From Euglena gracilis (Eukaryota), in NCBI GenBank assembly GCA_039621445.1, contig CP154954.1, positions 39,207,816 through 39,271,815 on the forward strand: a stretch of DNA of 64,000 nt. The letters run 5' to 3'. The position numbers and the translations under genes are program-made. Positions 4,663 through 63,477 of this stretch are shown here, piece after piece. The notes beneath the pieces were generated by a model, which ran no database searches, was not told the origin of the DNA, and worked only from the letters and a program-made list of their open reading frames with translations. How positions within the stretch are numbered: position 1 is the first letter of the stretch; the number at the start of each line of letters is the position of its first letter.

Positions 4663-4699
4663 TACTGATTGCCCCATGTCCCACGAGAGTGCTGACACA

Positions 4700-12932: not shown

Positions 12933-12958
12933 ACGCCCCACCGCAAACGAGTTTTTTT

Positions 12959-13337
12959 GAGGAAAGAGCGGATGGTAGGAAACTGTCCGGCACGGCGGGG
13001 GGGGGCTCCGCCCCCCCCCCCGAACCCCCCCCAGAACCAAAATAACACCACAATCCCAAGTTTGAAAAATTTTTGAGGAAAGAGCGGGTCGTATGCAACT
13101 GTCCGGCACGGCGGGGGGGGGCTCCGCCCCCCCCCGAACCCCCCCCCAGAACCAAAATACACAATCCCAAGTTTGAAAATTCTTTTTGAGGGAAAGAGCG
13201 GGTCGTATGCAACTGTCCGGCACGGCGGGGGGGGGCTCCGCCCCCCCCCGAACCCCCCCCCCAGAACCAAAATAACACAATCCCAAAGTTTGAAAATTTT
13301 TTTTGAGGGAAAGAGCGGGTCGTATGCAACTGTCCGG
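12959..13337. repeat. ~115-bp tandem repeat, 3 full copies and 1 partial
   Basis: GAGG(G)AAAGAGCGG...AACTGTCCGG recurs at ~12959, 13075, 13188, 13306. Confidence 0.9.
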
Positions 13338-13390
13338 GGGTCGGTTTGACATTCTCCGCCCCCCACAACCCCACCAGAATCAAAACAGCT

Positions 13391-13680
13391 CCTAAGCCCC
13401 CCGCCCCCCCTAACCCCCCCCTAACCCCCCCTAACCCCCCCTACCCCCCTAACCACCCCCCTACCCCCCCCTACCCCCCCCTACCCCCCCCCCCCCCCCT
13501 ACCCCCCCCTAACCCCCCTCCCCCCTCACCACCCCCCCTAACCCCCCCTAACCCCCCCTAACCCCCCCTAGCCCCCCCCTAACCCCCCTAACCCCCCCTA
13601 CCCCCTTACCATCCCCCCCTAACCCCCCCTAACCCCCCCACCCCCCCTAACCCCCCCTAACCCCCCCTAACCCCCCCTAG
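13391..13680. repeat. Second degenerate telomere-like (CnTAA) array
   Basis: Repeated CCCCCCCTAA variants, same orientation as the first array. Confidence 0.9.
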
Positions 13681-14074
13681 CCATTCCCCACTTCGTGCCA
13701 TATGTGCCGAACTGGGGCACCAGGGGGGGATGTGCAATTTGGGTGCGTGTGTTATTTTTACATGGAAAACCAACGGAAAACAGGGGGGGTGTTATTTGGG
13801 GTGGGGTTTTTTGGGGGTTGTTATTTGGGGGGTTTTATACTGAAGATGAGCCTCGCTCATTTTCACTAACCTCTCACCCAGACACCGAAAACCCCCTCTG
13901 TAAACACTTCAGTATCGTATCGCTCTTAAAACCTTATATTCACAGAGACCACAGGCGACCTGTGGCCGCACAAGGATTGATGAGGAGTTTCTCCTTGTGG
14001 CAAGGGCCAAACCACACGTTTCCCTGGGCACAGGGCACGGTCAAGAAGAAGTCCAAAAAAACCAGAAGTCCAAA

Positions 14075-14640
14075 AAATGAGACACGGACAACCTCTCATG
14101 CCCGGCTGTCAACTTCGACAGTTTGTTGTAAAATATTTCACCCACCATGGACTCCTCCAAACAATCTCACTATTTTATGAAAAAGATGCTGCAATGAGGG
14201 AGGAAAGCTCGCCCGATGGTCCACGTCCCGGGGACGTTCTTGTCATGAGGTACGACACGGATGGACCAGCGGCGATCGATGTCACCATCCGACACCCCTA
14301 GGCACCATCTCCGACGCGCCCTGGCACGGATGAGACCTGAAAGTGGCACAAGGCTCAAGAGGAGGATAAGGTGAGGAAGTATGGCGAGTGGTGCCAGCGG
14401 AGAGGCTGGACATTAATCCCCTTCGTAGTGGACTGCTATTGAGAGATGGGGGATGCCGCACTCACAATCGTTACCAATTCTGTTCACCTCCTTGCCGGCC
14501 AGGCGACGCATGGGAGAGAAGGGGAGTTGAGGGCAATTGCTGGCAAGCACTCAGTAAGGTAATGTCCAGAGAGTTGGCGGGGCAACTGGTTTTGGGGGCA
14601 GTGCGTGAGGACTCGGCCGATGGGGGCGTTGCCGAAGCTC
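14075..14640 (+). pseudogene. CRE-like restriction-like endonuclease (RLE) fragment (mirror ~47560-48120, -)
   Basis: RPGDVLVMRYDTDGPAAIDVTIRHP ... EEDKVRKYGEWCQRRGWTLIPFVVDCY matches RLE PD-(D/E)xK and KxxKY motifs. Confidence 0.8.
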
Positions 14641-15479
14641 GTCGACCGTACACATAAAAAGAACAGCACGCCCAGCCTCTAAAGCCCAGATATTTCTCAA
14701 AGCTGTGTATGCAAAGTTTTTCCAGGTGCCCATAGGGCCTGTCAGTACAACAAACTGAGGTGCGCTGGTGGAAACAACTGCTGCCTAAAGTGGACTTCGA
14801 CTCACGACTACGGCAGAGGACCTCTACAGCAGCCAAAGCAAGCAAGACTCTACACCCGTCACGCTACCAAATTAGCACGATGGAGCCGCAACGACACCCC
14901 GAGGAGCCGCAAGGCAGGAAAGACAACAAGCTGACCTGCGGCACCTTACCATTCCCCCCATAAACCTGCCGAGATGCCGCCCACCCGCCACTGGAAACCG
15001 GGATCACCGGCCCACCGGTCATCAACACCCAGACCGTAAACGGCACTGACACCCGCAACCTCCCAATTGCCTGCCCAACCACTCTTACTCACGTTGCCGA
15101 AGAACTCCGGAAGCTGAGCAACAACGGCCTCGCCTCGGGCTGTTACTATTGTATAAGCTCGCCCTATTACCTTCCGTCCCTTCACAAGCGAGCATAGAAT
15201 GTTGCCTCTGTATATAGCCTTACTGCTCCAAGCTCCTCAAATCCAGTAGGCTGTTCCACCGGTCGGTGGACTCGGTTCGCCCAACCACCGTTCGGAAGGT
15301 TGTACAGCTCCCTATGCCTTGGGCCTGCCCGCTGCCGTGGACATCCTTTCCAAGTGCGCTAACGATTGTTTGCGACACCCCTCAATGAACTTGGCCAGAT
15401 TGCCCCACTGCCGCAATGGGCCAATGACAAAAACTTGATCTTCAGGCACAGTCTCCACACAATACATAACGTTGGTGGA

Positions 15480-15790
15480 ATCAGCAGAGCATGCTTTCCC
15501 GCCAGAAAACACTTTCTGACGCATTAAATGGACCTGAAGCTATACGCTTTGCAAGCCAATGCCAACCACGTGCCGTGGCGTGGGCCGCTTTGACACCATC
15601 TCAAGGACTGCGCACCCTTTTACCCACAGCTGAATTCCGCTGCACACTTCGTTGGTCCCTCACATGAATGGAATGGAATGACCCTCACACCAATGGAATC
15701 CTATCCCAAACTCTGTCCCAAATGCTTTGCATCATCAGTTTTTCTCGGACACCACCTCGTTTGCTGCAAATCAAACTTCATTACCACAGG
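15480..15790 (+). pseudogene. CRE-like post-RT/zinc-finger fragment (mirror ~46430-46710, -)
   Basis: AWAALTPS..LPTAEFRCTLRWSL..CPKC...GHHLVCCK, a CCHC finger typical of RLE retroposons. Confidence 0.7.
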
Positions 15791-17167
15791 CAAGCTTCAC
15801 AGCCTGTAAAGAAAACGACCTGAATTACCGTTTACTGCCTGGGTACATTTGTGCGGGATAACCTTCTTTGCTTCTCGGCTTGTTCGAGGTCCATGGGGAT
15901 TCCCTGCCACCGCACAGGATCGATTACCCTGTCCAGTTGAGTCTCAACTCCCCGCGTGGCCTTTGTTATAAATTGTTTCATCTCCTGTTACTTGAAAAGA
16001 TCTTTTCCTTTCTCGGGGTTAGTGTGGGGTGGGCCCTTGGGGGGTCTCTGGCCACAGAACGGGTATAAAAAGCAGGCAGGTCTTGCTAAAAGCAGCGAAA
16101 GGCCTTCAAATTGCGGGTCGTGGTCAGACATTGACGCAAGGGAACAAGCGCTTCTTAGGCACACCAGCAGCAACAATTCCTGCTTCAGAATTCACTTCAG
16201 ACCACAAGACCTGTACCTGAACAGAAAATTAACTTAGAATTCAAATGAATCTTGACAAACTTGAATTGACTTGAAACTGGAACCAGATTTGCCGTTGCAA
16301 ATGTATAATCAGATTGAGGAAGGACAGAATAGTGACCGCGCCTTGTAGAAGTCAGTGTGGCCAGCCTTGTGTAAAATGTGGTCCGAGGTTAAAATTCCGT
16401 CAGGAAGGGATTATCCTTATTGTTTCGTCATTGAAACTGCAGGTCCCTGGTTAGTCCAAGTTCTCTGTTTAATTCTGGGGCGCCTCGGTTAGCTTTTAAG
16501 GGTGGCGCCTGAGGTTAGCCAACTTGCCAGGACACTCAGCACTCCTGACCCGCACTCCCCTTCCCAAGGAGTTGTTTACAACTCTTCTCGACTCACTTAG
16601 GAAGGGATGCGGAGTGCGTTTGTTAAAAGGGGGCTGGACCGCTCATGTGCTGGTCACAGGCCGGTCCACCGTCTTCCCTGCTCGAAGGGGGGGGTCTGGC
16701 CTGGTTGCTTTTTCTTTTTTTTAAGGGGCTGTCCCCCCCAGGTCCCTTGTCGAGTGGGGGAGGGGGCAGGCGCAAGGCGCCCATCACAGACCCCGCCGTT
16801 TTTGCAAAGGGGTAGCACCCGTTTGGGGGGTTCCGCCTGCACCTGCCAAGCGGTCAGCCACCGGCCAGGTGCGAATTCTTACAAAAATCAAGCGAAGGCT
16901 GAGTCAGGGTCTTCCGGTTAAAATCAGGCTGTGGCAGGGTGTGAGTCAGGGGTGCTTAGTGCCCAAAACAACACAACCTAACACTACCCAACCTGATGAC
17001 TCCGCAGTTAGGATTATGAAAATTATATTAGGAAATACAAATACGCTGACTCCATCTGTCCCTGCACAGGGCTCTGTCTCTGTTTTTGTCTGTTTTAAGT
17101 TCAAGAACTGAATTATCTTGGTGGCATCAGTTATCATTCTTACCCTGGACATTACGTACCTTGGTCT

Positions 17168-20100
17168 GTGGATTCATTTGTACTTCATTTGTGGCTTTGC
17201 TTGCTGGATTGCTTGTGTATTTTTTTATCAAAGGAAAGGTGTGAGCCAACCAACCCACCTGTTTTCACCCAAAAAAACCCACCCAAAACAAGAAAAATGC
17301 AATTTCTGAAACAATCCGCAACGGGAATTGAAAAAACCCTGACCGGGGTTAAAGATCCTACGCAACGGGGTGCCGGCCCCGAGGGACTGGAAACTCAAGG
17401 GCGGGTACCACGAATACAACATGGTAGCAGAGGTAGGTTGCCCATTTGTGATTCCCCTCCAACATGCGGCTACGAACAAGAAACTGAAAAACGACAAGAA
17501 AGTGAAGAGAATGACGCTGACATGCCAGCTGCCGAAACCGCCATCGCTAGGGTGGTGGAGCCGGCGGATGGCTGTCCAGCTCTGAACCAAACACTGGATG
17601 TGCCAGCTGCCTTAACCGCCATCGCCAGTGTGGTGGAGCAGGCAGATGGTTTCCCAGCCCTGAACCAAACACTGGAAACGCCAGCTGCCTTAACCGCCAT
17701 CGCTAGGGTGGTGGAGCCGGCAGATGGCGTTGCCGCCATATACCAGTCACTGGACAGCAACAGGTGGACTGAAACTGAACAAAACGGCACAGACATTACA
17801 GTGCCGCAGGCATGCAATGACAGCCCACGTGTCGTTGCCATGGTGCACATGGACCAGAACGACACTGAAAAGACCGGTCCATCACCAGACTACACTGAAC
17901 TGGACGAAAACAACGAACCGTACTTTGACAAACAGGTGTTTGCACCACAAAACTGGCTCCAACTGCCAGAACATGACGCTCAGAACAACCAAAGCTGGCA
18001 AACCGCAACAGCACAGCAACCAGGAACCCAGAGTTTTGCTCTGGTGGCGGTGCGACAGAGACCGGAACAACCTGACCGCCTCCAGGGTGAAATTGAAACT
18101 TCGTACCAGGAACCATCGTACAGCTCGTACGAGATTCCGAAGCTGGAACCACAGAACCAGGACACTGACTGGGACTGGTGGTCGAACTTTGCTTACGAAA
18201 CTAGACAGCTGACCCAGGAATTTCAACAGTTCAGACACAAAACTGAACAGACGAACCAGCAAACGGCAGAAACACTGCAGCAGCTACAGCAAAAAACGAC
18301 GGAATGGGTCAGCGAACTGCACGCAACAGTCAACAGACAGGCTGAAGCACTCCTGACAGAAATCAAAGGCAGACACGAAGAACTGACAACAGTCCTCGCA
18401 ACAACGCAAGCGAACATGGAACTGGTGACAGTGAACCAGAACAAACTGTACCAGGAACATTTCAACGGAATGTCACAGCAGATCGCGGAAATCAGGGAAA
18501 TGTCTGGCTCAACGGGCGAAAAACTCAGGGAATTTCACAGTTTTCTGCAGATGGCTGGTGGAAATGCACAGAACCAGGGTGAACATCTGGTTGGTTTACT
18601 GCACCGACAGCGAGAAAACGAAAAAACAACTGCAGAACTGCAACAGAGAACGGCTGTGGCAGAAGAACGGGTTGCAGGAATCACAGGCGGCGTCCAAGCG
18701 GTGAACAGCAAAGTGGACGAAACTGTGGCAACAGTTTTCAGAAAGGTTGAAAAACTCAGAGGCGAAATCAGCAGTGTGGTGGAAAGAATTCAGAAGGACA
18801 TGGGCAGTGAAATCGGAAATCTAGCAGGACGGGTTCAGCAGCAGGAAACAAAAAAACAACAACCATTCAAAACTGTGATTACCTGCACAAAAAAATGGTC
18901 GAACTGCAGAAAATACCAGATCAGCAACAGCAGATTACACAGCTAAACGAGGAAATCGGCAGACTGAAACGACAGGTGGAAAACCTGACCTCCAACGAAG
19001 AAAAACACAAGCAACGCACTGAACGACTGAACCTGGAGGTCGGCAGCCTGGGTCACAAGGTGGACGAAACAGTCCAAACGACTCAAAAACTGCTGGGTGA
19101 ACTGCAGAAAGGTGCCATTAAGACGGGAACACATGCCACACCGGAACAAGCTAAATGGATGAAAATGACATCTGCCACTAGCTCAATGACACCCAGGGTC
19201 GGTCAAATGGAAGCAAAACTGGCTGGTCTGACAACAAAACGGCAGAACGGGAAACACATGACAACAGCATTTACATGCTCTGACCACGGAACTGCAAACA
19301 CAGCAGAAACGGTGGACAGAACAGTTGGTGACCCTGGACAGAAAACACAGCACAGTGACAAAAACGACTGAGAACCTGACCGGAAAACTGGAAAGGGAAA
19401 ACACCCAGCAAATCACAAACCCCAGCCCTAGCCTGGCTAAAATACCCAAACGTCTTGAAAATTTAAGCATTTCTTCTCGCCCAGCCTGCACAGGGGCCTT
19501 CTGGCCGGAGACAGGGGCCGGCCCCCTGGCCAGTGGGCCTCCCGCGAGGTCCCAGGCTGGACAGCCAGGGGCAGCCACGACAGCCCAACGAACGGAACAG
19601 CCCACCCAGGGGACAGACAGGGCCTCGGGCCAACGGGGATCAGGGACCGCACAACCCCAGAACCTGCCCCCAGCCCCGAGGGGCCAGCCCATAGGGCAAC
19701 CTGGGACGGGGACCCCAGAACCCCACACCTGGTTGACGGGGATGGGGACCCCACAACCCCTGGCCCAGCCACCGCCAGCCCTGAGGGGCCAGCCCGCAGG
19801 AAGCCAAAGGACGGGGACCCAGAACCCCAGGCCTGTCAAACGGGGGAGGGGACCCCACAACCCCTCACAGGTACGTTCAGCCAGAGCAGCCAGCACTGGG
19901 GGGCTGAAACACCACACCCAAAAATGGAAGGAGTAGCTGCAACACTGGGGACCGTTAACTCGGCTTCCCTGGTGGGGCAGCTCATCCAGCAAGAAATAAA
20001 GACTGCCTTGACACCTTTAATTGCCCAACTGACTCGACAAACGGAACAACGACCGACTGCAGTGCCGACCAGCCCAGCACTTCCGACGAACCCGACAAGC

Positions 20101-21743
20101 CCTGCACCACAGCCAACCCAGCCGACGCAGCAGACTCAACAGCCAGTGACGACACAACAAAACCCACAGTTCTGGACTCGGGGCTTGTTCATGTGGGCAG
20201 ACGAAACAGAAACTCAGAAAACAGCCACAACAACCTGGGTGGGACCCCAGGTGGGGTCTACCCAAACTGCCATCCATCACATAGGAGACGAAACAGTGGT
20301 GGCACCCGTTGCAACGGCCCCGACAGCATCCTTCGGGCTGCTGCTGGGTCCAGTGGGCGCGGCAATGACAAAAGACCTGGTAAGACCAACACTGCAGGGG
20401 AATTTCGTAGATTTTGCCGTGAAATTTCCAATGCACCTGCAACGTGTGTCATCCAGTCAGGGGTCCCTGACTGATGACCTGAAACTGTCACTGCTGGAGG
20501 GCAGCCTGGACAGTGCCAGTAAACTGGAACTACAACGCAGACAGGAACGCGGTGAGAAAATAAAATACCAGGAATTTTGGAACTGGTGTGCCAGAAATAT
20601 GGTGGAGACACGCAATCAGCCATAAAAGACGAACTGAAAAACCTGAGACCAAAAACGGAAGGAAAACTGACACTGGAAGCGTGGAGGGAGTTTGATGCCC
20701 ATTTCAAACTCCTCTACAGCAGGCTGGAAAATCCATCAGAGGAAGACGCTTACAACCCGGTGGCTGAAAAAATGCCTGAAACACAACGCAGAAGCTGCAT
20801 CAGGGAACAGGACCGCAGAAATCAGGACAGACCAACACTGAAACTGAAAGGGGTCACGAACATTACGAACGTCCCAGATGCAACGACGGAAGACGTTTGT
20901 GACCTGGTGGCAGCAACTGTGGGTACAGGTGAGAATTTTCAGGTGGCACGAGACGGACAAAACTTCAGAATCCATCTGCACAGCAGCAGAGCTGCTGAAC
21001 TGCTCCTGATGAAAAACTGTTCAACGCTGCTGACTGGACACAAACCACACTTCACACAGGTGCAAGCCAGACTGACTCTGGACGAACTGTTCGAACGGGT
21101 GGAAACTGAACTCAGGTGCCAACAACAGTCAGACTCCCTGGGTAAGGAGTACAACGGCTGGCAGAACCAACCTCGTGAAAACAGATCACGGTCGATGGAC
21201 CGCAGGGGTTACGTCAGGGAAGACAAGGAGGAGGAAAAAACAAAATACAGAAGTCGGACACCACCTTCCAGATCCCGACCCAACTCCCCTGGACCTCGAA
21301 CCACAACACCTGAAAAACCAAGACCCCCCTCTCCACGCCAGCAGGTGCCCATGGCAGTTTCAGAACAGCCTGGCCAGGGACGATACACCAACTGGTCAGA
21401 CTGGAGACAGAACGACTAAGGCAAAGGCAAAGGAAAGGGGAAAGGTCAAAACTGGGGTTCAACCCAAAACTGGAACCAGAACCAGAACTGGAATCATAAT
21501 TACGGCAAGGGCTACGATTCCGGAAAGGGATACAACTCTGGGAAAGGATACGATTCTGGGAAGGGGAGCGGGAAAGGAAAAGGTAAAGGGCAGCCACAGC
21601 CACAGCCAGCAGTAACGAAAACTGAACCACAGCCACAACAAACCAATTCACAGGGGCCAGCCAACCAGCCACGGGGACAGCCAAAGGCGGAAGCAGCCTC
21701 CAGCAATCGCTGGCAGCCAGTTCAAAATGCAGAACGGAAGTGA
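17168..21743 (+). pseudogene. gag: Family A gag: repeats, coiled coil, capsid-like region, RS- and GKG-rich tail; frameshifted
   Basis: ORFs 17168-18946, 18895-19371, 19924-20625, 20577-21419; similarity to ORF 58443-62597 (LKLSLLEGSLD vs LKLQLFTMTLD; GKLTLEAWREF vs GKITVQEWRDF); ends TGA 21741-21743. Confidence 0.75.
17524..17757 (+). repeat. 78-bp (26-aa) coding tandem repeat, 3 copies, in family A gag
   Basis: GCCAGCTGCC at 17524, 17602, 17680; unit PAALTAIARVVEPADGxPALNQTLxx. Confidence 0.95.
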
Positions 21744-21977
21744 AGGGGCTGCGGCCTGAGGGTAGGGGACGAGAGTGGCGACTCTCTGCAGACACAACCG
21801 AAACAACTAGACAAAACAAGGGAACCAGGTCCAGAGCCGCAGCGGTCATACACACTGGTTAAGGGAGGTAAGAAAAAACCTCAAAAGAAAAACATCCTGA
21901 CAAAAAAACGACTCCACAGCCCAGAACCGAAAAGGGAACAGGTCAGCTGCAGGTTCGGCAGAGCGGCTTCACGGTGG

Positions 21978-22390
21978 GTGTCTGAAAACTACCACGTGAA
22001 GGAAGATAAAATGACGGAAATTCTCTCACACTTCGGGGTCCAGCCCCTGCTGGATGCCATAGAAAAGAAAAAAAACAAAAGATTCTCGCAATGGTGGCAT
22101 CGGGCAGCCCTGAGGGCACAGACGCATTTGAAAAAGACTGGCACGGAAAACTGCTGTGAATGAACTCCCCATTCAGCAAAACTTCACAGGTGGTGAGAAA
22201 AATTCAAACAGACGAGGCCCATGCACTCCTCATGGTACCCAGATGGGTTCACAGAAAATGGTACGGAGAAATCAAAAAACTGGCAGTGATGTCAATGTTC
22301 ATTTCAGCGAAAACAAAACTGTTCGAACAGGGTGACAAGAAAAGCAGGGAAACACCGTGGCCCGTGGAAGTGTTTTTGGTATACGGACAC
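21978..22390 (+). pseudogene. Dam-like N6-adenine MTase domain of family A (left copy, disrupted)
   Basis: ENYHVK..ILSHFGVQPLLDA..DAFEKDWHGKLL*MNSPF..ALLMVPRW..KWY..TKLFE..PWPV; motif IV appears as NSPF. Confidence 0.8.
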
Positions 22391-22624
22391 AAAACACGGT
22401 GCAAGTACCTACCAGGTTTCCACAAACATTTCACCCCCCTACACCCGACATCCAAGGTGAGGTTCGGCACAGCCCACGAGTACCCGCCAGTGGAGGACGA
22501 GGTGGAGGGTGGTGAACAAAAAACCGGTTTGGGAACTGAAAAACCACATAAATACATCAGAAAAGTGCAGGAGGCAGCCACAGCGACACCATAACAGGCC
22601 ACAGCAGAAAAACTGAAACCGAAA

Positions 22625-23190
22625 ATGCTGGACATGTTCTGTGGAACAAAGTCAGTCAGCAAGGTGTATGAAGAAATGGGTTTCGAGGTGGTGACAGTGG
22701 ATTCAGACCCCAGGTGGAAAGCGGATTACCAGGTGGACGTACTGTACTGGGACTTCAGGAAACATTTCAAACCTGGTGACTTTCACACGGTGGTGTGTGG
22801 GGTTCCCTGCACAGAATTCAGCATTGCCCTGACGACAAGACCCAGAAACCTGGAAAAAGGAGACAGCCTTGCAAAGAGAGCCCTGGAAATTGTGGAATTT
22901 CTGCAGCCGCAAAAATGGTGGTTGGAAAACCCAAGGTACGGATACCTGAGAAAACGAGATGACACGAAACCGTACCCGTACATTGACGTGGATTACTGTC
23001 AATACACTGACTGGGGTTACAAAAAACCAACACGAATCTGGGGCAGCCCTGACATCCTGCAGGTACCAGCTAAACGGTGTGACGGAAAAACCTGCAAAAA
23101 CCTGGACCCGAACGGTGGTGGTCACCTGGTGAAACTCAGCAACAAAAACAACATCCCAGCCTTCAAAAAAATTCAGGATCCCAGATCAAC
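22625..23190 (+). CDS. C5-cytosine DNA methyltransferase domain of family A (left copy)
   Basis: Motif I LDMFCG, VTVD, motif IV GVPC (catalytic Cys), motif VI LENP, DYCQY..WGYKKPTRIW. Confidence 0.9.
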
Positions 23191-23415
23191 TGATTCAGGA
23201 CCTGGCGGGGTTCCACGAACGGCTACGGCAAACCAGCCAAGCCCAGGCCGCGCAGCAACCACCGCTGCAGCGGCCCAGCCCTGCCCAGACTGCACGACAA
23301 AACATGCTCTCACAGCCCAGACCAGAACCCAACAGGTCAACAGCCAAACCCAGATTCAACTGACAAAACAGAACCAGACCAAAACATTCGGCTTCCAAAA
23401 CGACTGTGTGAACCG

Positions 23416-23961
23416 GTGTCCAAACTCCTGCTGGGGCAGGTCATCAGCAGAAAGAAAGCAAAACAACTCCTCATCGAAGTCCGTGCTGTTTTGCCAGACG
23501 GCAAAAAAATGTTCCTACAGGCCCTGATTGACACGGGAGCACAGGCAAACCTGGTGGAAAAGAACCTGATTCCCCAACAAAACTTCAGACGTTCACAAAA
23601 ACCCCTGGCACTGATCACAGCGGACGGAACAAGGATGGAAGAAGGACTACACGAAGTCACACTGGAACTGCAGTTTTCATCAAGGGTGCACAACACGGAC
23701 AGGACAAGGGAGTGGTCCACCATTGGAACTTTCCATGATGCCGACATCCAAGTGGATGCCATCCTCGGGTATCCGTGGATGGAACAACGCCAACTGGGGG
23801 TTTTCTCACACCTACAATCACTAGCCCTCATAGGTGAACCACTGCGGCTGCTGTCCAGTTGGCACCAGCTGAAGGAACAAAAACACAGGGAACGGAAAAT
23901 ACACCAAATTCAGAAAAACATTTCGGCAGTGCGGGCAATGAATTTGCAGATTCCTGCTTAA
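23416..23961 (+). pseudogene. Retropepsin aspartic protease
   Basis: ALIDTGAQANLV ... DAILGYPWM. Confidence 0.9.
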
Positions 23962-24033
23962 GAGGGCCAGGACGAGGAAAGACTGTTCGAAGACGAAACA
24001 ACACTGGAAACACTGGCGAAAGAACTTCAGAAA

Positions 24034-25000
24034 TTGGCAAAGAAATATGACAGGGTACACGGTGTTGTGGTGCTGCCAGAAGGACATGAAACACAAGGTG
24101 AAAAGGTGGCTGATCTGGTGAAAAAACTGCGGCAGGACTATGAAGGAGTGGTCTTGCAAGACAAAATCTACCCAGACCCCCCAGAACGCGGACCACTGGG
24201 ATTTGGAAAGATTGAGCTGAAACCTGGAACAGTGGCAAAAAAGCAAAGACCCATCCACATGACAGGAGAACGCACTCATCGACATGGTGGACGAATTGGT
24301 TAGGGACCTGAAAGTGGAAGACGGGATGAGTGACTGGTCCAGCCCCACGTTTGTGGTGGCAAAAAAGGTGGAAAATGGAAAGGGGTGGTGGATTTCAGAG
24401 CACTGAACGAGGCAACAATCACAGATGCCCATCCCCTGCCTGGGATAGAAGACATCCTAGTTCAACAAGGACAACGGGCCATGTACAGTGTACTGGACCT
24501 CAAAGACGCGTTCCATCAGGTGCCACTGAGAACAGAGTCCAGACCCTACACCTGCTGCAGCACACCTAAGGGAACAAAACAGTGGAGAGTGGTGGTCATG
24601 GGAATGAAAAACGGTGTACCGATTTTCCAAAGGGTGATCGAGTACAGCCTGGAGGAGGTACAGGACATTGCAAACCCCTACGTGGACGACATAATCGTAG
24701 GAACCGTATGGCAGGGGTCAGAACACAAATCCCTCGAACAACACGACAGGGACATCAGAAGGGTGATGGAGGCACTGGAAAAACAGTAACACCGTGGCAG
24801 ACATCAAGAAATGCAAATTTTTCGTGAAAGAGGTTGAACTCTGTGGACATGTGCTGGGTGGTTGACAACGAAAACCAGCACCTGGGAAACTGATGGCCTT
24901 GGAAAAATGAAAGGAACCAAAAACGGTCACAGCCCTACGGGCATTCCTGGGATTCACAAACTATTATGCCTCATACACTCCAGGGTACGCGGAATTGGCT
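24034..25000 (+). pseudogene. Ty3/Gypsy reverse transcriptase (disrupted)
   Basis: WSSPTF, VVDFRALN, LDLKDAFHQVP, MGMKNG, PYVDDII, KCKFF, FLGFTNYY; internal stops. Confidence 0.93.
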
Positions 25001-25650
25001 GCAGGCCTGATGGAGAAACTGAAAGTGAAAAAGGGACAGGGAAAGAAAGGAAGCCTGACACCTGTGTTTTTCGGTGAAAAGGAACGAACAGCTTTTCAGA
25101 CCATCAAACATAAACTGCTCAGAAGCCCGAAACTGCAAACGGTGAACCCAGACAAACCGTTCATACTCAGGGTGGTTGCAAGTGGCAGAGCCGTAGGTGC
25201 GGCTCTGGAACAATTTGCGGAGGACACTGCAGAAAAACCAGACCCAAAAACTGCCATGACCAAAAAAACAGTACCCGTAGCTTTCTGTTCACGAAAGCTG
25301 ACACCTGGGCAGGTTCGCTCGTGGTCTCCTAGGGAGAAGGAGACCTACGCAGGGATCCTGGCCCTGCAAAAATGGGCTTCCTGGATAGGAATGCAACCGG
25401 TACTGGTGTTGACGGACCACAAGTGCATTGAGGCATGGGCAACGGAGGTTCTGGACACCTCCAGTGGACCAGCTGTACGTAGGGCTAGGTGGCACGAACT
25501 GCTTTCGCGGTTCGACATAACCGTAGCATACGTACCTGGCAAAGACAACACGGTCGCCGATGCCTTGAGTAGGTGGGCCTACCCCGCCACACAGGCATTC
25601 GCCGACGTGAGTATCCACGGGAGTGAGGAGGACGACCGACTCATGAAAGA
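24995..25650 (+). pseudogene. RNase H
   Basis: ASGRAVGAALEQ, PVAFCSRKL, EKET, VLTDHK, RWHELL, YVPGKDNTVADALSR. Confidence 0.92.
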
Positions 25651-26229
25651 AATCATCAAACAGGAGGAAAAGGAACAGAAAACTTGTATGGTGATCAACG
25701 TGGCAGACCTGGCACAGGCACAAAAACAACTTCAAAAACCCGTCACTGTGGCCGTCACAACAAGGGGGGGAACCAAAACGGGTGAAGATTCGCCCACAGT
25801 GCCTGGTTCAACGGAAAACGGTGACACACCTCAAAAAATTTCAAAAACACCACAAAAACCTGCAAAAACGTCAAAGAAGTGGGTTGTGAAGGAAGCGACT
25901 GTGGTGGAACCAAGTAAAAAACTGCAGACGCAACCCCAAGGGAGACCACAGATGAGGCAGGAAACCTGATCCGACCAGACAAACCAAAAAACAAAACCCC
26001 AGAAAATCCAAACACGGCCGAGGGACCATCCACTGAGGAATACCCACCAAGGCGAAGACCCCTGGAAGAGGACCCTGTGGAACCCCTAACAACAAACGAC
26101 TCAACAAAACAACAGGACGCGCAAGGTGTGTCATCCTCAACGGGGACACCCGTTGGACCTCCATCAAGCGGAGTGCACGCCCCGGAGCTTCAGCAGGGGG
26201 AACCGAAAGGGGTGATGGACAGGGAAGGG

Positions 26230-27694
26230 AAGAACGAGTACGAAAGTTGCCCAAAGTGGGGAACTGTGCTCAAGGACCTGAAGGAAACGGGGTTCAAAAA
26301 CTGGCCTGACGGGTACCGATTCGACAACGGCAGGCTCTTCAAAAACGGTCTCCTGTGTGTACCAAGCGGGTTGACTGTAAACGTAATTCGGGAACATCAC
26401 GAAACAGCCGGGCACCCAGGGTCAGCCCAACTTTGGGACCAGATGGGAAGGTGGTTTGTGTTTGCGGACCACCAGGATGCAAAAAAACTGACAGGCAAAA
26501 TGATGACCATGTGTGAAACCTGCCAAGCAACAGAACCCAGCCACCTACCATGCAAGTGCCCCATTGAACCGACACCGATTCATGCACACCTCATGGACAG
26601 TGTTGCTATCGTTTTGTTCTCTCTACCTGAAACGACCTTTGAAGGGAAAAAATATGACACGTTGGCGTTGTGTGTGGACAGGCTGAGTGGGTGGATGGTT
26701 GCAACCTCCCACCTGGCCAAGGGACTCGCAGCGGAAAAGGTTGGAAAGGAAATGTACAAACGGTGGGGAATTTTTGGGATACCCTCGCTGATGAGCTACT
26801 ACCGGGACTCCCAATTTCCAGCCGCTTGGTGGAAAACCTTGTGCGCTGTACGTATCAGTGTGGCCTACGGGCAGGCATACCACCACCAAGCCAACGGACG
26901 GGCTGAAGTGATGTAGCGGGTCAACAAGTCCTCCGAAAACTGTCAAAACTGGCTGCTGAAAAAGGGGTACCCTGTGTTTAACTCCTACCGAACGCCTTGA
27001 AGGCCCTACACGACGTCCAGGTGAAAAGGGACTGTAACCGTACGAAATTGTGTTTGGCAGGCACAGACCGTGGGACGGATTGCCATATCAACCACAAAGG
27101 GAAGCGGAAGTGGCCACAGCGTTCTTGGGAAGGATGAAAAAACAAGACCAGTGGGTGAGCCTGGTCCTGAACGAAAAACAGCGTGAACGGGCTGAAACGA
27201 TGAACAGAAAACGCAGAGAACCACCTGCCTTGGAAATCGGCTCGAAAGTCTGGTATCAACCCGAAAGAAAACCTGGCACCGACAAACTCGAACCGAAGTG
27301 GAAAGGACCTGCGGTGGTGTTGGAACGGGTAGGACAACACTCCTACGAGGTTGAACTACGACGTGGAAACCGACAACCTGCGCACCGTTCACAACTCAAA
27401 CCCCACGTGGACAACCACTACAACAAAACCCCTGCCACCCTCTACTTTTGGTCGGGCAAAGCACAGGAGTTGGCGGTTGGCCCGGACGAATGGGAGGTTG
27501 ACAAAGTGCTGAACCACCGCAGAAAAGACGGAAAACTTCAATTTTTGATTCAGTGGAAAAACTGGGACCCGTCTGACACTCAGTGGGAACCCTTGAACCA
27601 CTTCTTCCTCCTAACCAACAAAGATGTGGTCCAACATTGTAAGAAACGGGACCTGGCTGTGGATGTGAGAGAGTTGCTTGATGGGATGGAGTGA
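26230..27694 (+). pseudogene. Integrase with HHCC zinc finger, core, GPY/F-like motif and chromodomain
   Basis: HETAGHPG...CETCQ, CVDRLS, HHQANGRAE, KLEPKWKGP, WEVDKVLNHR..FLIQWKNWDPSDTQWEP. Confidence 0.92.
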
Positions 27695-28149
27695 CGCATG
27701 TCGCATACCCCAGCGCTCTGTCACAGATGCCGACACGTCGCCACCCCCAACAACCCCGTCGCCAATCCCAACCCTACCACCCCCACCAACCCCGACAAGC
27801 CCTCTTCACCATCCCCACCATACTACCCCCACCCCTACGTGCCCTTGAGGCCCAACTTCCTTCCCCCCTGTGCCTCCGAACATCAACACCAACGCAAATG
27901 AGGCCACACCCACCACCATACCGCCCCCACCTCCATACCAACCCCCAACGACAACCCTCACCACAACGCCCTCAAGAGCCCCCACAGCCACCCCCACAGC
28001 GGAGCCCCAGCCCGAACCCCCCACAGCCGGAGCCACCGAGCCCTCCGCGGAGGCGGAGACGCTCAGTCTGCTCCAGCCCGGGCAGTTTACGGGGGGTATC
28101 GCTGCCCCTGGACAGCCCCCCAGCAACACCCCCCCGCAGTCCACGAATA

Positions 28150-34570: not shown

Positions 34571-34652
34571 TTGGTGTTGGGGTTGGCGCGGGGTTGTTGG
34601 GGGTGGCGACGTGTCGGCATCTGTGACAGAGCGCTGGGCTATGCGACATGCG

Positions 34653-37600
34653 TCACTCCATCCCCCTCAAGCAACTCTCTCACATCCACAGCCAGGTCCG
34701 TTTCTTACAATATTGGACCACATCTTTGTTGGTTCGGAGGAAGAAGTGGTTCAAGGGTTCCCACTGAGTGTCAGACGGGTCCCAGTTTTTCCACTGAATC
34801 AAAAATTGAAGTTTTCCGTCTTTTCTGCGGTGGTTCAGCACTTTGTCAACCTCCCATTTATCCGGGCCAACCTCCAACTCCTGTGCTTTGCCCGACCAAA
34901 AGTAGAGGGGGACAGGGGTTTTGTTGTAGTGGTCTCCCACGTGGGGTTTGAGTTGTGAACGGTGGACAGGTTGTCGGTTTCCAGGTCGTAGTTCAACCAC
35001 CTAGGAGTGTTGTCCTACCCGTTCCAACACCACCGCAGGTCCTTTCCACTTCGGTTCGAGTTTGTCGGTGCCAGGTTTTCTTTCGGGTTGATACCAGACT
35101 TTCGAGCCGATTTCCAACGCAGGTGGTTCTCTGCGTTTTCTGTTCACCGTTTCAGCCCGTTCACGCTGTTTTTCGTTCAGGGCCAGGCTCACCCACTGGT
35201 CTTGTTCTTTCATCCTTCCCAAGAACGCTGTGGCCCCTTCCGCTTCCCTTTGTGGTTGATATGGCAATCCCGCCAACGGTATGTGCCTGCCAAACACAAT
35301 TTCGTACGGTGACAGTCCCGTTTCACCTTGGACGTCGTGTAGGGCCTTCAAGGCGTTCGGTAGGAGTTCAACCCAGGGTACCCCTGCCCGTACGCCACAC
35401 GGATACGTACAGTGCACAATGTTTTCACCAACCGGCTGTCAATTGGGAGCCCCGGTCGGAGCTCACCACCGAGGGTATCCCAAAAATTACCCACTGTTTG
35501 TACATTTCCTTTCCAACCTTTTCCGCTGCGAGTCCCTTGGCCAGGTGGGAGGTTGCAACCATCCACCCACTCAGCCTGTCCACACACAACGCCAACGTGT
35601 CATATTTTTTCACTTCAAAGGTCGTTTCAGGTAGAGAGAACAGAACGATAGCAACACTGTCCATGAGGTGTGCATGAATCGGTGTCGGTTCAATGGGGCA
35701 CTTGCATGGTAGGTGGCTGGGTTCTGTTGCTTGGCAGGTTTCACACATGGTCATCATTTTGCCTGTCAGTTTTTTTGCATCCTGGTGGTCCGCAAACACA
35801 AACCACCTTCCCATCTGGTCCCAAAGTTGGGCTGACCCTGGGTGCCCGGCTGTTTCGTGATGTTCCCGAATTACGTTTCCAGTCAACCCGCTTGGTACAC
35901 ACAGGAGACCGTTTTTGAAGAGCCTGCCGTTGTCGAATCGGTACCCGTCAGGCCAGTTTTTGAACCCCGTTTCCTTCAGGTCCTTGAGCACAGGTCCCCA
36001 CCTTGGGCAACTTTCGTACTCGTTCTTCCATTCCCTGTCCATCACCCCTTTCGGTTCCCCCTGTTGAAGCTCCGGGGCGTGCACTCCGCTTGATGGAGGT
36101 CCAACGGGTGTCCCCGTTGAGGATGACGCACCTTGCGCGTCCTTTTGTTTTGTTGAGTCGTTTGTTGTTAGGGGTTCCACAGGGTCCTCTTCCAGGGGTC
36201 TTCGCCTTGGTGTATTCCTCAGTGGATGGTCCCTCGGCCGTGTTTGGATTTTCTGGGGTTTTTTTTTTGTTGGTCTGGTCGGATCATGTTTCCTGCCTCA
36301 TCCGTGGTCTCCCTTGGGGTTGCTTCTGCAGTTTTTTGCTTGGTTCCACCACAGTCGCTTCCTTCACAACCCACTTCTTTGACGTTTTTGCAGGTTTTTG
36401 TGGTGTTTTGAATTTTTTGAGGGGTGTCACCGTTTTCCGTTGAACCAGGCACTGTGGGCGAATCTTCACCCGTTTTGGCTCCCCCCCTTGTTGTGACTGC
36501 CACAGTGACGGGTTTTTGAAGTTGTTTTTGTGCCTGTGCCAGGTCTGCCACGTTGATCACCATACAAGTTTTCTGTTCCTTTTCCTCCTATTTGATGATT
36601 TCTTTCATGAGTCGGTCGTCCTCCTCACTCCCGTGGATACTCACGTCGGCGAATGCCTGTGTGGCGGGGTAGGCCCACCTACTCAAGGCATCGGCGACCG
36701 TGTTGCCTTTGCCAGGTACGTATGCTACGGTTATGTCGAACTGCGAAAGCAGTTCGTGCCACCTAGCCCTACGTCCAGCTGGTCCACTGAGAGTGTCCAG
36801 AACCTCCGTTGCCCATGCCTCAATGCACTTGTGGTCCGTCAACACCAGTACCGGTTGCATTCCTATCCAGGAAGCCCATTTTTGCAGGGCCAGGATCACT
36901 GCGTAGGTCTCCTTTTCCCTAGGAGACCACGAGCGAACCTGCCCAGGTGTCAGCTTTCGTGAACAGAAAGCTACGGGTACTGTTTTTTTGGTCATGGCTG
37001 TTGTTGGTTCTGGTTTTTCTGGAGTGTCCTCCCCAAATTGTTCCAGAGCCGCACCTACGGCTCTGCCACTTGCAACCACCCTGAGTATGAACGGTTTGTC
37101 TGGGTTCACCGTTTCCAGATTGGGGCTTCTGAGCAGTTTTTCTTTGATGGTCTGAAAAGCGGTTCGTTCCTTTTCACCGAAAAACACAGGTGTCAGGCTT
37201 CCTTTCTTTCCCTGTCCCTTTTTCACTTTCAGTTTTTCCATCAGGCCTGCAGCCAATTCCGCGTACCCTGGAGTGTATGAGGCATAATAGTTTGTGAATC
37301 CCAGGAATGCCCGTAGGGCTGTGACCGTTTTTGGTTCCTTTCATTTTTACAAGGCCCTCAGTTTTCCAGGTGCTGGTTTTCGTTGTCAACCACCCAGCAA
37401 ATGTCCACAGAGTTCAACCTCTTTCACGAAAAATTTGCATTTCTTGATGTCTGCCACGGTGTTACTGTTTTTCCAGTGCCTCCATCACCCTTCTGATGTC
37501 CTTGTCGTGTTGTTCGAGGGTTTTGTCTTCTGACCCCTGCCATACGGTTCCTACGATTATGTCGTCCACGTAGGGGTTTGCAATGTCCTGTACCTCCTCC

Positions 37601-63450: not shown

Positions 63451-63477
63451 GTGTTGGAACGAAAAAGCGGATATCGT

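What the first reader, a model, noticed from the sequence alone, without database searches (positions are those of the whole stretch)
21744..27694. Ty3/Gypsy chromovirus encoding both a 6mA-type and a 5mC DNA methyltransferase ahead of protease
Seen: between gag and PR lie a Dam-like domain and a compact C5-MTase (FCG, GVPC, ENP); in the mirror copy they share one 477-aa ORF (38725-40158). Known: Dam-like domains are standard in DIRS elements, downstream of RNase H, and C5-MTase-carrying retrotransposons were reported in Symbiodinium dinoflagellates and a charophyte alga. I am not aware of a Ty3 chromovirus with both MTase classes in tandem at the Pol N-terminus, but cannot check the literature. 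Inference: the element may mark its own cDNA with two modifications while the chromodomain reads chromatin for targeting. In these decayed copies motif IV reads NSPF/NFPF, probably decayed from NPPF.
Basis: partly seen in the sequence, partly recalled or inferred. Interest (0 to 1): 0.9.

Follow-up and report, generated by a model that had tools for sequence, protein, structure and literature searches.

The report
Retrotransposon carrying two DNA methyltransferases
This is a decayed copy, duplicated as a mirror image, of a very abundant Ty3/gypsy-type retrotransposon whose polyprotein starts with an adenine-type and a cytosine-type DNA methyltransferase domain and ends with a chromodomain. This kind of element was first described as an "EpiLTR" in a 2026 preprint.

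Summary
After the gag stop, window 21744-27694 reads Dam-like domain, compact C5-MTase domain, protease, RT, RNase H, integrase and chromodomain. Pfam, PHROGs and a confident AlphaFold model of a 91%-identical intact relative support both methyltransferase folds.

The cassette is a family trait, not a one-off insertion:
- Intact relatives at 31-46% identity keep it.
- 29 of 198 fetched relatives carry both domains, in at least six different orders.
- A second, diverged element in the same window (58434-64000) has the reverse order.
- About 50,000 contigs per DNA run of the coded source organism lie on the element.

- The "mirror copy" is one arm of a 24.5 kb inverted segmental duplication that shares the same frameshifts. 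It is not an independent insertion.
- The architecture is already in print. A May 2026 bioRxiv preprint names LTR elements with DAM, DNMT and a chromodomain "EpiLTRs", in Euglena gracilis and Cymbomonas.

- The C5 module forms a single clade. Its nearest relatives are roughly 210-aa methyltransferases on low-GC viral contigs, some with polinton-like hallmarks, and then Bacillus phage methylases.
- gag and pol are separated by one in-frame stop in three diverged elements.

No LTRs were found, the host was not identified and methyltransferase activity is untested.

The parts
3197..27772 (.). Left arm of a 24.5 kb inverted segmental duplication. Its inner end coincides with the 3' end of the element copy.
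   Evidence: Self-blastn, (3197-12620, 13725-26881 and 26963-27772 against the right arm, 95-96% identity).
34576..57937 (.). Right arm of the inverted duplication. It holds the mirror copy of the element at about 34576-45300 on the minus strand.
   Evidence: The arms are 97.2% identical over the element, with 300 substitutions and 25 gaps in the alignment, 23 of them listed within the element.
17099..21743 (+). ORF1 region of copy A1. It has three 78-nt repeats (17523-17756), a long coiled-coil part, a gag-like part and a GK-rich tail. It is broken into several frames.
   Evidence: D4. Pfam gives only weak coiled-coil-type hits and no gag family. The layout matches the intact ORF1 of element B and of L005.
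21741..21743 (+). Single in-frame stop codon between gag and pol. The ORFs on both sides are in the same frame.
   Evidence: The same arrangement occurs in the mirror copy, in element B at 62595-62597 and in L005. No significant RNA fold lies downstream.
21951..22420 (+). Dam-like (DIRS-type, PF05869) N6-adenine-MTase-fold domain. It is broken by a frameshift after QWW (about 22095), a stop at 22157-22159, and NSPF where relatives read NPPF.
   Evidence: tblastn with P0001 and P0065; alignments; Pfam on relatives; PHROG phrog_111; model residues 4-151 against PCIF1 MTase, Z 11.2.
22592..22594 (+). In-frame stop in the linker between the two MTase domains. It is private to copy A1.
   Evidence: The mirror copy and P0001 read through here. 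Nearly all the depth laid at this place differs from the window.
22619..23188 (+). Compact C5-cytosine-MTase domain with motifs I (FCG), IV (GVPC), VI (ENP) and a KPTRIWG motif. There is a frameshift near 23165 before the last helix.
   Evidence: Pfam PF00145 23.4 bits; phrog_757 with E 1e-13 to 1.8e-20 on relatives; model 209-421 against DNMT3A Z 14.5 and M.HhaI Z 13.3; Foldseek probability 1.00.
23383..23955 (+). Aspartic protease.
   Evidence: Weak Pfam hits to A3, RVP and gag-asp_proteas; tblastn with P0003 and P0065.
24121..25915 (+). Reverse transcriptase and RNase H, in two frames with in-frame stops.
   Evidence: Pfam RVT_1, RT_RNaseH and RT_RNaseH_2; tblastn with P0116 and the L011 pol.
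26206..27694 (+). Integrase (H2C2 zinc domain, core, SH3-like domain) and a C-terminal chromodomain at about 27491-27595.
   Evidence: Pfam Integrase_H2C2, SH3_Tf2-1 and Chromo; tblastn with P0116.
38725..40239 (-). Mirror-copy ORF (504 aa stop to stop) holding the C-terminal two thirds of the Dam-like domain (NFPF) and the C5-MTase domain.
58434..62597 (+). Element B: an intact 1387-aa ORF1 with 78-nt repeats, a coiled coil, a gag-like part and a GK-rich tail, ending at an in-frame TAG.
   Evidence: No Pfam family hit. Similar to the L005 gag.
62859..63867 (+). Element B cassette in the reverse order. The C5-MTase (62859-63462) has one frameshift near 63217-63224. The Dam-like domain (63481-63867) has NPPW intact. 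The element runs off the window.
   Evidence: tblastn; Pfam Dam 42.1 bits, above the cut-off; PF00145 19.1 bits, below the cut-off of 22.
11320..11781 (-). A separate Dam-like domain fragment with NPPW intact, belonging to another element. Its palindrome twin is at 49261-49704 (+).
   Evidence: Pfam Dam 40.8 bits; tblastn.

Best explanation
The region is one old, dead copy of a very abundant Ty3/gypsy chromovirus-like retrotransposon family. A 24.5 kb inverted segmental duplication later copied it together with about 14 kb of its upstream flank.

In intact family members the layout is as follows. A long ORF1 (coiled coil plus gag with zinc knuckles) ends at a single in-frame stop. Pol follows in the same frame and opens with a DIRS-derived Dam-like N6-adenine-MTase-fold domain and a compact, virus-type C5-cytosine MTase. 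Protease, RT, RNase H, integrase and a chromodomain come after them. This is the 'EpiLTR' type of element.

Shown here: domain identities, folds, order, conservation of the catalytic motifs in relatives, family-wide presence, and abundance.

Inferred:
- Pol is made by read-through of the gag stop.
- The two MTase modules act on the element's own new DNA in or near the particle. The C5 enzyme would give CpG methylation in a host whose DNA looks CpG-methylated (CpG observed/expected 0.56). The Dam-like domain would give 6mA.
- The chromodomain steers integration.

My estimates for intact copies: the C5 domain is catalytic, about 0.6; the Dam-like domain is catalytic on DNA, about 0.35.
For: - Domain order and Pfam hits.
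- Intact relatives hold DAM-C5-PR in one ORF: P0001, P0003 and P0065.
- Pfam Dam passes the cut-off in 5 of 6 tandem relatives and in element B.
- PF00145 at or above the cut-off of 22 in both window copies; in 5 of 9 relatives (P0001, P0018, P0007, P0024, and P0049 exactly at 22.0); and in 5 of 9 (P0116, P0182, P0075, P0068 clearly; P0103 at 21.8 is below).
- The proline and cysteine of motif IV are invariant in the alignment of 56 homologues. Spacing of motifs I/IV/VI/VIII is a constant 58/39/34.
- AlphaFold model of P0001: two domains, residues 1-148 and 205-430, with most 10-residue blocks above pLDDT 90, joined by a disordered linker. The C5 domain matches DNMT3A/3B, M.HhaI, MET1 and DIM2 at Z 12-14.5. 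The Dam-like domain matches the PCIF1 adenosine MTase at Z 11.2.
- Family-wide presence: 29 of 198 fetched proteins carry both domains. 873 cluster representatives score E<=1e-30.
- Abundance: 51,102 and 53,755 contigs of two DNA runs lie on 12500-30500. The summed depth plateau of 2-4e5 runs unbroken from about 17.3 to 27.5 kb, across the cassette, against 1-3e4 in the flanking bins 14303-14903 and 28126-30500.
- In-frame gag stop in A, B and L005.
- CpG observed/expected 0.56-0.60 with TpG/CpA 1.3.
- The preprint describes the same combination of modules.
Against: - Both window copies are dead. The pol frame path is 3>2>3>1>2>1>2 with in-frame stops, and the catalytic NPPF is mutated in both.
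- No LTR pair or any terminal repeat was found, so the ends and the LTR class are not shown.
- No single intact ORF with DAM, C5 and a chromodomain together was seen. P0065 stops after PR, and P0116 (2513 aa) has C5 and Chromo but no DAM.
- The preprint found no 6mA gain from the eukaryotic DAM domains it expressed in E. coli.
- The intact relative L005 reads NHPF.
- The focal lineage has K in place of the second glycine of motif I, FCGTKS against FSGTGS.
- There is no fold signal for read-through.
- RNA evidence is only contigs from libraries that may contain DNA.
Confidence: 0.8

Rival explanations
1. The cassette is a one-off nested insertion or an assembly chimera. A DIRS-like or viral fragment landed between gag and protease of an ordinary chromovirus, in this locus only.
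For: The window is full of nested TE fragments, including another Dam-only fragment at 11320-11781. The preprint warns of nested insertions and chimeric assemblies in Euglena. The two window copies are not independent.
Against: DAM-C5-PR sits in single uninterrupted ORFs of relatives at 40-46% identity from other sources (P0003, P0065). Read depth is continuous across the cassette in two DNA runs. A 91%-identical intact protein exists elsewhere (P0001). The retroelement C5 domains form one clade with SH-aLRT 100.
Confidence: 0.04
2. The two domains are kept but are not DNA methyltransferases in vivo. They might act as nucleic-acid or SAM binders, as RNA or RNA:DNA-hybrid modifiers, or as structural parts of the polyprotein.
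For: The preprint's E. coli assays of eukaryotic DAM domains gave no 6mA, and it cites an earlier negative result for a caulimovirus DAM. According to the preprint, eukaryotic DAMs lack the CD-1 and TR-1 parts of bacterial Dam. The best structural match of the Dam-like domain is an RNA cap adenosine MTase, PCIF1. L005 has NHPF in an otherwise intact ORF. Motif I carries K in the focal lineage.
Against: NPP[FYW] is kept in the six tandem relatives picked up by the motif search. The C5 motifs PC and ENP, and their spacing, are conserved across the 56 aligned homologues. The C5 fold matches DNA C5-MTases over about 200 residues and above RNA MTases. Retrotransposon DNMTs of other families were shown active on CG (de Mendoza 2018, abstract).
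Confidence: 0.3
3. The C5 module derives from a cellular eukaryotic DNMT lineage (sister to DNMT4, as the preprint's tree suggests), not from a virus.
For: The preprint states that EpiLTR DNMTs form a clade sister to DNMT4 with bootstrap 100. The best solved-structure matches are eukaryotic DNMT3A/3B.
Against: Relatives covering the full domain length at 29-40% identity are roughly 210-aa stand-alone ORFs on low-GC contigs. 26 of these contigs are in IMG/VR. Four of ten loci examined carry a viral-type gene: a capsid protein N-terminus, a protein-primed PolB, a D5-like primase and an SF1 helicase. PHROG phrog_757 scores 49-74 bits against 22-32 bits for PF00145. Bacillus phage 'C-5 cytosine-specific DNA methylase I' aligns over 97% of the length. 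I could not include DNMT4 sequences, and I could not see the preprint's supplementary tree.
Confidence: 0.3
4. The inverted duplication is an assembly artefact, for example a fold-back chimera of long reads, and not a real palindrome.
For: The two arms are near-symmetric around a 6.8 kb spacer. Transversions outnumber transitions between the arms, 184 to 116. That pattern is odd for natural divergence and could reflect polishing noise in a high-copy repeat.
Against: The arms differ by 3-5%, with 25 gaps in the element alignment including 46- and 90-nt ones. The spacer is unique sequence with its own TE fragment. A fold-back artefact would be nearly identical in both arms.
Confidence: 0.15

Closest known systems
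EpiLTRs (Fernandez-Moreno et al., bioRxiv 10.64898/2026.05.21.726589, May 2026; I read sections 7-10 and passages, but could not see figures or supplements)
   Same: An LTR/Ty3-like retrotransposon that combines a DIRS-derived DAM domain, a C5 DNMT domain and a chromodomain. It sits in a host context with heavy CpG methylation. The modules are shuffled between elements.
   Different: The host of this window is not identified. The module order of the Euglena type is given only in a figure I could not see. The Cymbomonas type has its DNMT at the 3' end of pol, whereas here both MTases sit at the 5' end. The preprint places the DNMT sister to DNMT4. Here the nearest relatives found are short MTases on viral contigs.
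KnitGypsy-Dnmt3, SymbioDIRS-Dnmt3 and SymbioLINE-Dnmt (de Mendoza et al. 2018, PMC5890265; I read section 6 and passages)
   Same: Retrotransposons that took a C5-MTase into their coding region. The proposed role is self-methylation of the cDNA.
   Different: Those carry DNMT3-type or orphan DNMTs and no Dam-like domain. Here the C5 domain is about 200 residues, with a KPTRIWG motif, and scores best against the phage family phrog_757.
DIRS elements with a Dam-like 'MT' domain, and the DAM-LTR lineages (chlorophyte, ichthyosporean, Pyropia, Euglena)
   Same: The same PF05869-type domain with an NPP[FYW] motif. The preprint infers transfer of this domain from DIRS elements into Ty3/gypsy elements.
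   Different: DIRS elements use a tyrosine recombinase and place the MT domain after RNase H. Here there is a DDE integrase, and the domain sits at the N-terminus of Pol. Most DAM-LTRs have no C5-MTase.
Short stand-alone C5-MTases of aquatic low-GC viral contigs, and of Bacillus phages (Herelleviridae 'C-5 cytosine-specific DNA methylase I', about 221-228 aa)
   Same: The same length and motif set, including DYC...GY.KPTR. Identity to the retroelement domain is 29-40%. The phage methylases are 29-33% identical to the viral-contig MTase over 97% of its length.
   Different: They are free-standing genes in DNA viruses, not parts of a retroelement polyprotein.

Membership tests
Ty3/gypsy (Metaviridae) chromovirus | Pol order PR-RT-RNase H-IN with Ty3-type RT_RNaseH and Integrase_H2C2 domains | tested here: met
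   Pfam; tblastn frame path; the intact relative P0116 has RVT_1, RT_RNaseH, rve and Chromo.
Ty3/gypsy (Metaviridae) chromovirus | Chromodomain at the C-terminus of integrase | tested here: met
   PF00385 40.6 bits in copy 1 and 41.4 bits in the mirror copy, both above the cut-off of 25.1.
Ty3/gypsy (Metaviridae) chromovirus | Long terminal direct repeats flanking the coding region | tested here: inconclusive
   No direct-repeat pair around the element. Homology between the arms, and with the family's contigs, stops at about 27711-27772, so the 3' end may be cut off.
Ty3/gypsy (Metaviridae) chromovirus | Primer-binding site, polypurine tract, and RT placed among reference Ty3/gypsy RTs in a tree | not tested
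   The ends are undefined and no reference RT set was at hand.
EpiLTR (2026 preprint) | DAM, C5 DNMT and chromodomain in one LTR-type retroelement unit | tested here: met
   All three lie in colinear order within one decayed pol in both arms. Read depth is continuous over the whole unit. No single intact ORF with all three was seen among the relatives.
EpiLTR (2026 preprint) | Belongs to the Euglena or Cymbomonas lineages; DNMT falls in the clade sister to DNMT4 | not testable with these tools
   The host is coded or unnamed. The preprint's sequences and supplements were not available.
PF05869 Dam-type N6-adenine MTase | Profile score above the gathering cut-off of 28.1 bits | tested here: inconclusive
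   Window mirror copy 16.2 bits and copy 1 no hit. The 91%-identical P0001 scores 31.9, and 5 of 6 tandem relatives pass. Element B scores 42.1.
PF05869 Dam-type N6-adenine MTase | Catalytic NPP[FYW] motif | tested here: not met
   The window copies read NSPF and NFPF. The motif is met in P0001, P0002, P0003, P0005, P0017 and P0018, in P0065, P0068 and P0087, and in element B. L005 reads NHPF.
PF05869 Dam-type N6-adenine MTase | Adenine methylation of DNA | not testable with these tools
   The preprint's E. coli assays on other eukaryotic DAMs were negative.
PF00145 C5-cytosine DNA MTase | Profile score above the cut-off of 22 bits, with motifs I, IV (PC) and VI (ENV-like) | tested here: met
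   23.4 and 24.1 bits. FCG, GVPC and ENP are present. P and C are invariant in the 56 homologues.
PF00145 C5-cytosine DNA MTase | C5-MTase fold including the C-terminal part | tested here: met
   Model residues 209-421 against DNMT3A (Z 14.5, 200 aligned, rmsd 4.2) and M.HhaI (Z 13.3). Foldseek E 1.9e-7, probability 1.00. The model is of P0001, not of the broken window copy.
DIRS retrotransposon | Tyrosine recombinase in place of a DDE integrase | tested here: not met
   Integrase_H2C2 and a DDE-type core are present, and no phage-integrase hit appeared in the ORFs scanned.

The most novel reading that the evidence does not exclude
The C5-methyltransferase module of these dual-methylase retrotransposons was not taken from a host DNMT. 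It was captured once from a small (about 210 aa) methyltransferase of polinton-like or virophage-type DNA viruses. It then moved, as a free-standing cassette together with the DIRS-derived Dam-like module, into at least six different positions of the Ty3/gypsy polyprotein. On this reading the elements are three-way chimeras of a DNA virus, a DIRS element and a chromovirus.
Probability: 0.4. Interest if true: 0.6.

Novelty: new member of a known kind. Interest (0 to 1): 0.42.

Why it matters
Retrotransposons that carry their own writers of both 6mA and 5mC, plus a reader of histone marks, would be parasites that edit the host's epigenetic signals instead of only evading them.

This window gives a concrete, very abundant family of that type. 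It shows that the two writer modules are shuffled freely within the polyprotein. It also points to DNA-virus methylases as the nearest relatives of the C5 module, which differs from the origin suggested in the only paper on the subject.

If the host is Euglena, this is mostly confirmation of that preprint with added detail.

Tried and rejected
- **Whole genome:** none is held for this window.
- **LTRs and termini:** no direct repeats flank the element. Sensitive blastn of the 5' and 3' flanks of A, B and the element ending at 3131 found nothing beyond the palindrome itself. A loose-end 30-mer from other copies, behind 27711, has no match in the window. Single-contig joints such as 16614>30303 have sides of only 24 nt and I did not rely on them.
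- **Read-through signal:** folds downstream of the gag stops are no better than shuffles, with z of -0.06, -0.50 and 0.06.
- **Host identity:** Rfam found 0 families. There is one doubtful tRNA-Glu call inside GC-rich repeats. Cluster look-up gave no taxa. Run organisms are coded. I therefore name no host. The match to Euglena is by description only: GC 52%, low CpG, contig sets of 1.4 Gb or more, and the EpiLTR type.
- **Habitat:** the leaf-litter RNA run holds a small share of the words (0.16). After laying, 303 contigs fit, of which 6 are at 99% or above. I draw no habitat conclusion.
- **Sequence search of solved structures with the tandem profile:** only weak hits, DNMT1 motifs IV-VI at E about 0.02.
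- **Protein Atlas:** best score 0.84, to short viral PF00145 clusters. This is a lead only.
- **Enterococcus and Streptococcus phage hits:** they cover only 49% of the MTase and were not used as outgroup.
- **Direction of transfer:** with four Bacillus phage outgroup rows the retroelement clade nests inside the low-GC group, but at SH-aLRT 76 and 86 and on a 2.7-long root branch. This is suggestive, not shown.
- **Gag:** no Pfam family for ORF1 of A, of its mirror copy or of B.

Full report
**1. What is in the sequence**

Stop-to-stop ORFs under the standard code and Pfam show a colinear but broken retroelement pol on the + strand.
- The gag tail ends at a stop at 21741-21743.
- A Dam-like domain lies at about 21951-22420.
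- A C5-MTase domain lies at 22619-23188. PF00145 scores 23.4 bits against a cut-off of 22, and the strings FCG, GVPC and ENP are present.
- Then come an aspartic protease, RVT_1 (E 2.9e-22), RT_RNaseH, Integrase_H2C2, an SH3-like domain and a chromodomain (E 2.3e-10), ending at 27694.

The mirror ORF 38725-40239 (-) holds both MTase domains in one frame. PF00145 scores 24.1 bits and PF05869 16.2 bits, the latter below its cut-off of 28.1.

**2. The two copies are not independent**

Self-comparison shows that 3197-27772 is the reverse complement of 34576-57937 at 95-96% identity, around a 6.8 kb spacer. The duplicated block includes about 14 kb of unrelated TE-rich DNA upstream of the element.

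Both copies share a frameshift right after QWW in the Dam-like domain and another at the end of the C5 domain. Private defects exist as well:
- Copy 1 has a stop at the LLW codon, NSPF, and a stop in the inter-domain linker.
- Copy 2 has NFPF.

Along pol, copy 1 changes frame six times and carries several in-frame stops. This is one dead copy that was duplicated after it had decayed.

**3. The domains are real**

A protein 91% identical to the window's reading (P0001) is intact. It reads NPPF and passes both Pfam cut-offs, Dam 31.9 bits and PF00145 22.6 bits. Of six tandem relatives at 31-46% identity, five pass the Dam cut-off.

PHROGs places the C5 domain in phrog_757 and phrog_363 ('DNA methyltransferase', E 1e-13 to 1.8e-20) and the Dam-like domain in phrog_111.

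In an alignment of 56 homologues the proline and cysteine of motif IV are invariant. The spacing of motifs I, IV, VI and the KPTRIWG motif is a constant 58/39/34.

An AlphaFold model of P0001 built on that alignment has two domains, residues 1-148 and 205-430, with most 10-residue blocks above pLDDT 90, joined by a disordered linker.
- The second domain matches DNMT3A (Z 14.5), DNMT3B (14.4), M.HhaI (13.3), a prophage MTase (12.5), MET1 and DIM2. Foldseek gives probability 1.00.
- The first domain matches the N6-adenosine MTase domain of PCIF1 (Z 11.2, 142 residues aligned, rmsd 3.4).

**4. The cassette is a family trait**

The first protein search gave 61 relatives. A profile search of cluster representatives gave 873 at E<=1e-30 and 4551 at E<=1e-10.

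I annotated all 198 fetched proteins with local HMMs. 29 of them carry both domains:

| Order | Proteins |
|---|---|
| DAM-C5 | 14 |
| DAM-C5-PR | 3 |
| C5-DAM | 4 |
| DAM-PR-C5 | 3 |
| PR-C5-DAM | 2 |
| C5-PR-DAM | 1 |
| PR-DAM-C5 | 1 |
| (DAM-)PR-DAM-C5 | 1 |

The set is biased by how it was fetched, and most of these proteins are fragments.

P0065 (891 aa) is an intact gag end-DAM(NPPY)-C5-PR reading. P0116 (2513 aa) is an intact polyprotein with C5, RT, RNase H, rve and Chromo but no DAM. The C5 domain alone also occurs after RNase H, before integrase and before RT.

The window itself holds a second, diverged element (58434-64000). It has an intact 1387-aa ORF1 followed by C5 and then DAM (NPPW; Dam 42.1 bits).

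Two DNA runs of the coded source organism put 51,102 and 53,755 contigs on 12500-30500 at 85% identity or above. The summed depth plateau of 2-4e5 runs unbroken from about 17.3 kb to 27.5 kb. The flanking bins 14303-14903 and 28126-30500 show 1-3e4, while other bins upstream of the element are themselves repeated.

At the NSPF codon every contig laid differs from the window. At the linker stop nearly all of the depth does. At the C5 frameshift about 70% of the depth does.

Contigs from an RNA-labelled metatranscriptome (X20) and a presumed RNA run (X15) cover the cassette at about 95% identity. Such libraries can contain DNA, so I do not claim expression.

**5. Anatomy beyond the finding**

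In the focal element (both arms), in element B and in the intact metagenomic relative L005, ORF1 and pol are in the same frame and separated by a single stop codon. I infer read-through expression of Pol. Folding gives no support for a stimulating structure.

ORF1 is unusually long, at about 1250-1480 aa. It combines short tandem repeats, a long coiled coil, a gag-like part (with two zinc knuckles in L005 and L011) and a GK-rich tail.

No LTR pair, and no similarity between the 5' and 3' flanks, was found. Homology with the other arm ends at 27772, and contigs of other copies depart from the window at about 27711. The 3' end may therefore be missing, and the LTR criterion stays open.

**6. Origin of the C5 module**

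A metagenome scan found 180 stretches that encode a relative, and 80 were kept.
- Seven loci place the domain beside retroelement domains. Together with five further loci they have GC of 0.46-0.59.
- The other 68 loci have GC of 0.20-0.45 and carry the domain alone. In the two loci where I listed ORFs, it is a stand-alone ORF of 209-212 aa.

Of ten such loci whose large ORFs I scanned, four carry virus-type genes: L051 a major-capsid N-terminal domain, L067 a protein-primed PolB, L043 a D5-like primase and L038 an SF1 helicase. Six gave nothing. 26 IMG/VR contigs encode the same MTase.

I built a tree of 116 domains. Rows with less than 170 of the 210 query residues aligned, or with a stop, were dropped. 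The tree separates 50 retroelement-borne rows from 66 low-GC rows at SH-aLRT 99.

With four Bacillus phage 'C-5 cytosine-specific DNA methylase I' proteins as outgroup, the retroelement clade is monophyletic at SH-aLRT 100 and nests within the low-GC group. The nesting rests on supports of only 76 and 86 and on a root branch 2.7 long.

I read this as follows:
- A single capture into retroelements is well supported.
- A DNA-virus source is suggested but not shown.

I could not include DNMT4 or the other cellular DNMT families.

**7. Comparison with the literature**

De Mendoza et al. 2018 (PMC5890265; section 6 and passages read) described DNMT3-type or orphan DNMTs in LINE, DIRS and Gypsy elements. 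None of those has a Dam-like domain.

Fernandez-Moreno et al. (bioRxiv 10.64898/2026.05.21.726589, 22 May 2026; outline, sections 7-10 and passages read) report the following:
- DIRS-derived DAM domains were captured by Ty3/gypsy elements at least four times.
- Subsets in Cymbomonas tetramitiformis and Euglena gracilis also carry a DNMT and a chromodomain. The authors call these 'EpiLTRs' and say the combination had not been described before.
- The EpiLTR DNMTs form a clade sister to DNMT4.
- In E. gracilis, CpG methylation is close to the default state and LTR expression is low.

The kind of element is therefore known. The window's features fit their description of Euglena: GC 52%, CpG observed/expected 0.56, contig sets of 1.4 Gb or more and extreme TE load.

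A search for polinton-like viruses together with cytosine methyltransferase and retrotransposon returned 5 papers (3 listed), and no listed title or abstract start concerns this link. Supplements of the preprint, which I could not see, may already hold viral sequences in the DNMT tree.

**8. Mechanism**

Shown: domain identity, order, conserved catalytic motifs in relatives, abundance and modular shuffling.

Inferred: Gag-Pol arises by read-through. The MTase modules, either released by protease or acting within the polyprotein, modify the new DNA copy. The chromodomain directs integration. The free permutation of DAM, C5 and PR suggests that each module works on its own and not as a fused pair.

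Whether the Dam-like domain methylates DNA at all is doubtful, for three reasons:
- The preprint's assays on other eukaryotic DAMs were negative.
- The intact relative L005 reads NHPF.
- The best structural match of the domain is an RNA MTase.

**9. Verdict**

This is a real, family-wide dual-methyltransferase chromovirus-type element, present here as a dead, palindromically duplicated copy. It belongs to a kind described only months ago. Interest is moderate. The added value lies in the viral affinity of the C5 module, the many module orders, the second element with the reverse order, and the in-frame gag stop.

Noticed in passing
window 3197-27772 and 34576-57937: Most of the window is one inverted duplication with arms of 24.5 kb at 95-97% identity and a spacer of 6.8 kb. 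Its inner ends coincide with the 3' end of the element copies. Between the arms transversions (184) outnumber transitions (116), which is unusual.
   Followed up: partly
window 58434-64000: A second, better preserved element lies outside the palindrome. It has an intact 1387-aa ORF1, an in-frame TAG, then C5-MTase followed by a Dam-like domain (NPPW). This is the reverse order of the focal element. The same C5-DAM order occurs in 4 fetched relatives, and PR-C5-DAM in 2 more.
   Followed up: partly
window 21741-21743, 62595-62597; L005 3768-3770: In three diverged elements gag and pol lie in the same frame, separated by one stop codon (TGA in the focal element, TAG in element B). This suggests stop-codon read-through. 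No supporting RNA structure was found downstream.
   Followed up: partly
window 11320-11781 (-) and 49261-49704 (+): A stand-alone Dam-like domain fragment (Pfam 40.8 bits, NPPW intact) lies between 232-nt direct repeats at 10001-10232 and 12221-12452, which are 97% identical. It may be a small deleted derivative of another DAM-carrying element.
   Followed up: no
window 17523-17756 and 59451-59779: Both elements have tandem 78-nt (26-aa) repeats in the N-terminal part of ORF1, ahead of a long coiled-coil region. The repeat sequences differ between the two elements.
   Followed up: no
L051, L067, L043, L038 and about 60 further low-GC loci; L081-L106: Roughly 210-aa stand-alone C5-MTases, 29-40% identical to the retroelement domain, sit on low-GC aquatic contigs. 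Neighbouring genes include a major-capsid N-terminal domain, a protein-primed PolB, a D5-like primase and an SF1 helicase. 26 such contigs are in IMG/VR, one of them labelled as a giant-virus MAG.
   Followed up: partly
window 2724-3131 (+), 4985-5665 (+), 28456-28979 (-): Other TE pieces: a chromodomain ORF end just left of the palindrome (Pfam 37.6 bits); a LINE-like RT fragment (RVT_1 26.5 bits, below the cut-off); and an inverted gag fragment 66% identical to 20327-20852 in the spacer.
   Followed up: no
window 12631-13740 and 12953-13337: Arrays of about 10-nt tandem repeats, and three 115-nt units with long G and C runs. They have extremely high depth in the DNA runs.
   Followed up: no
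whole window: CpG observed/expected is 0.56 and TpG/CpA is 1.28, at 52% GC. This is the signature of a CpG-methylated genome.
   Followed up: partly
L005 3771-6305: An intact relative with the order DAM-PR-C5-RT reads NHPF in place of NPPF in an otherwise open frame. The adenine-MTase catalytic motif is therefore not strictly kept in this group.
   Followed up: no
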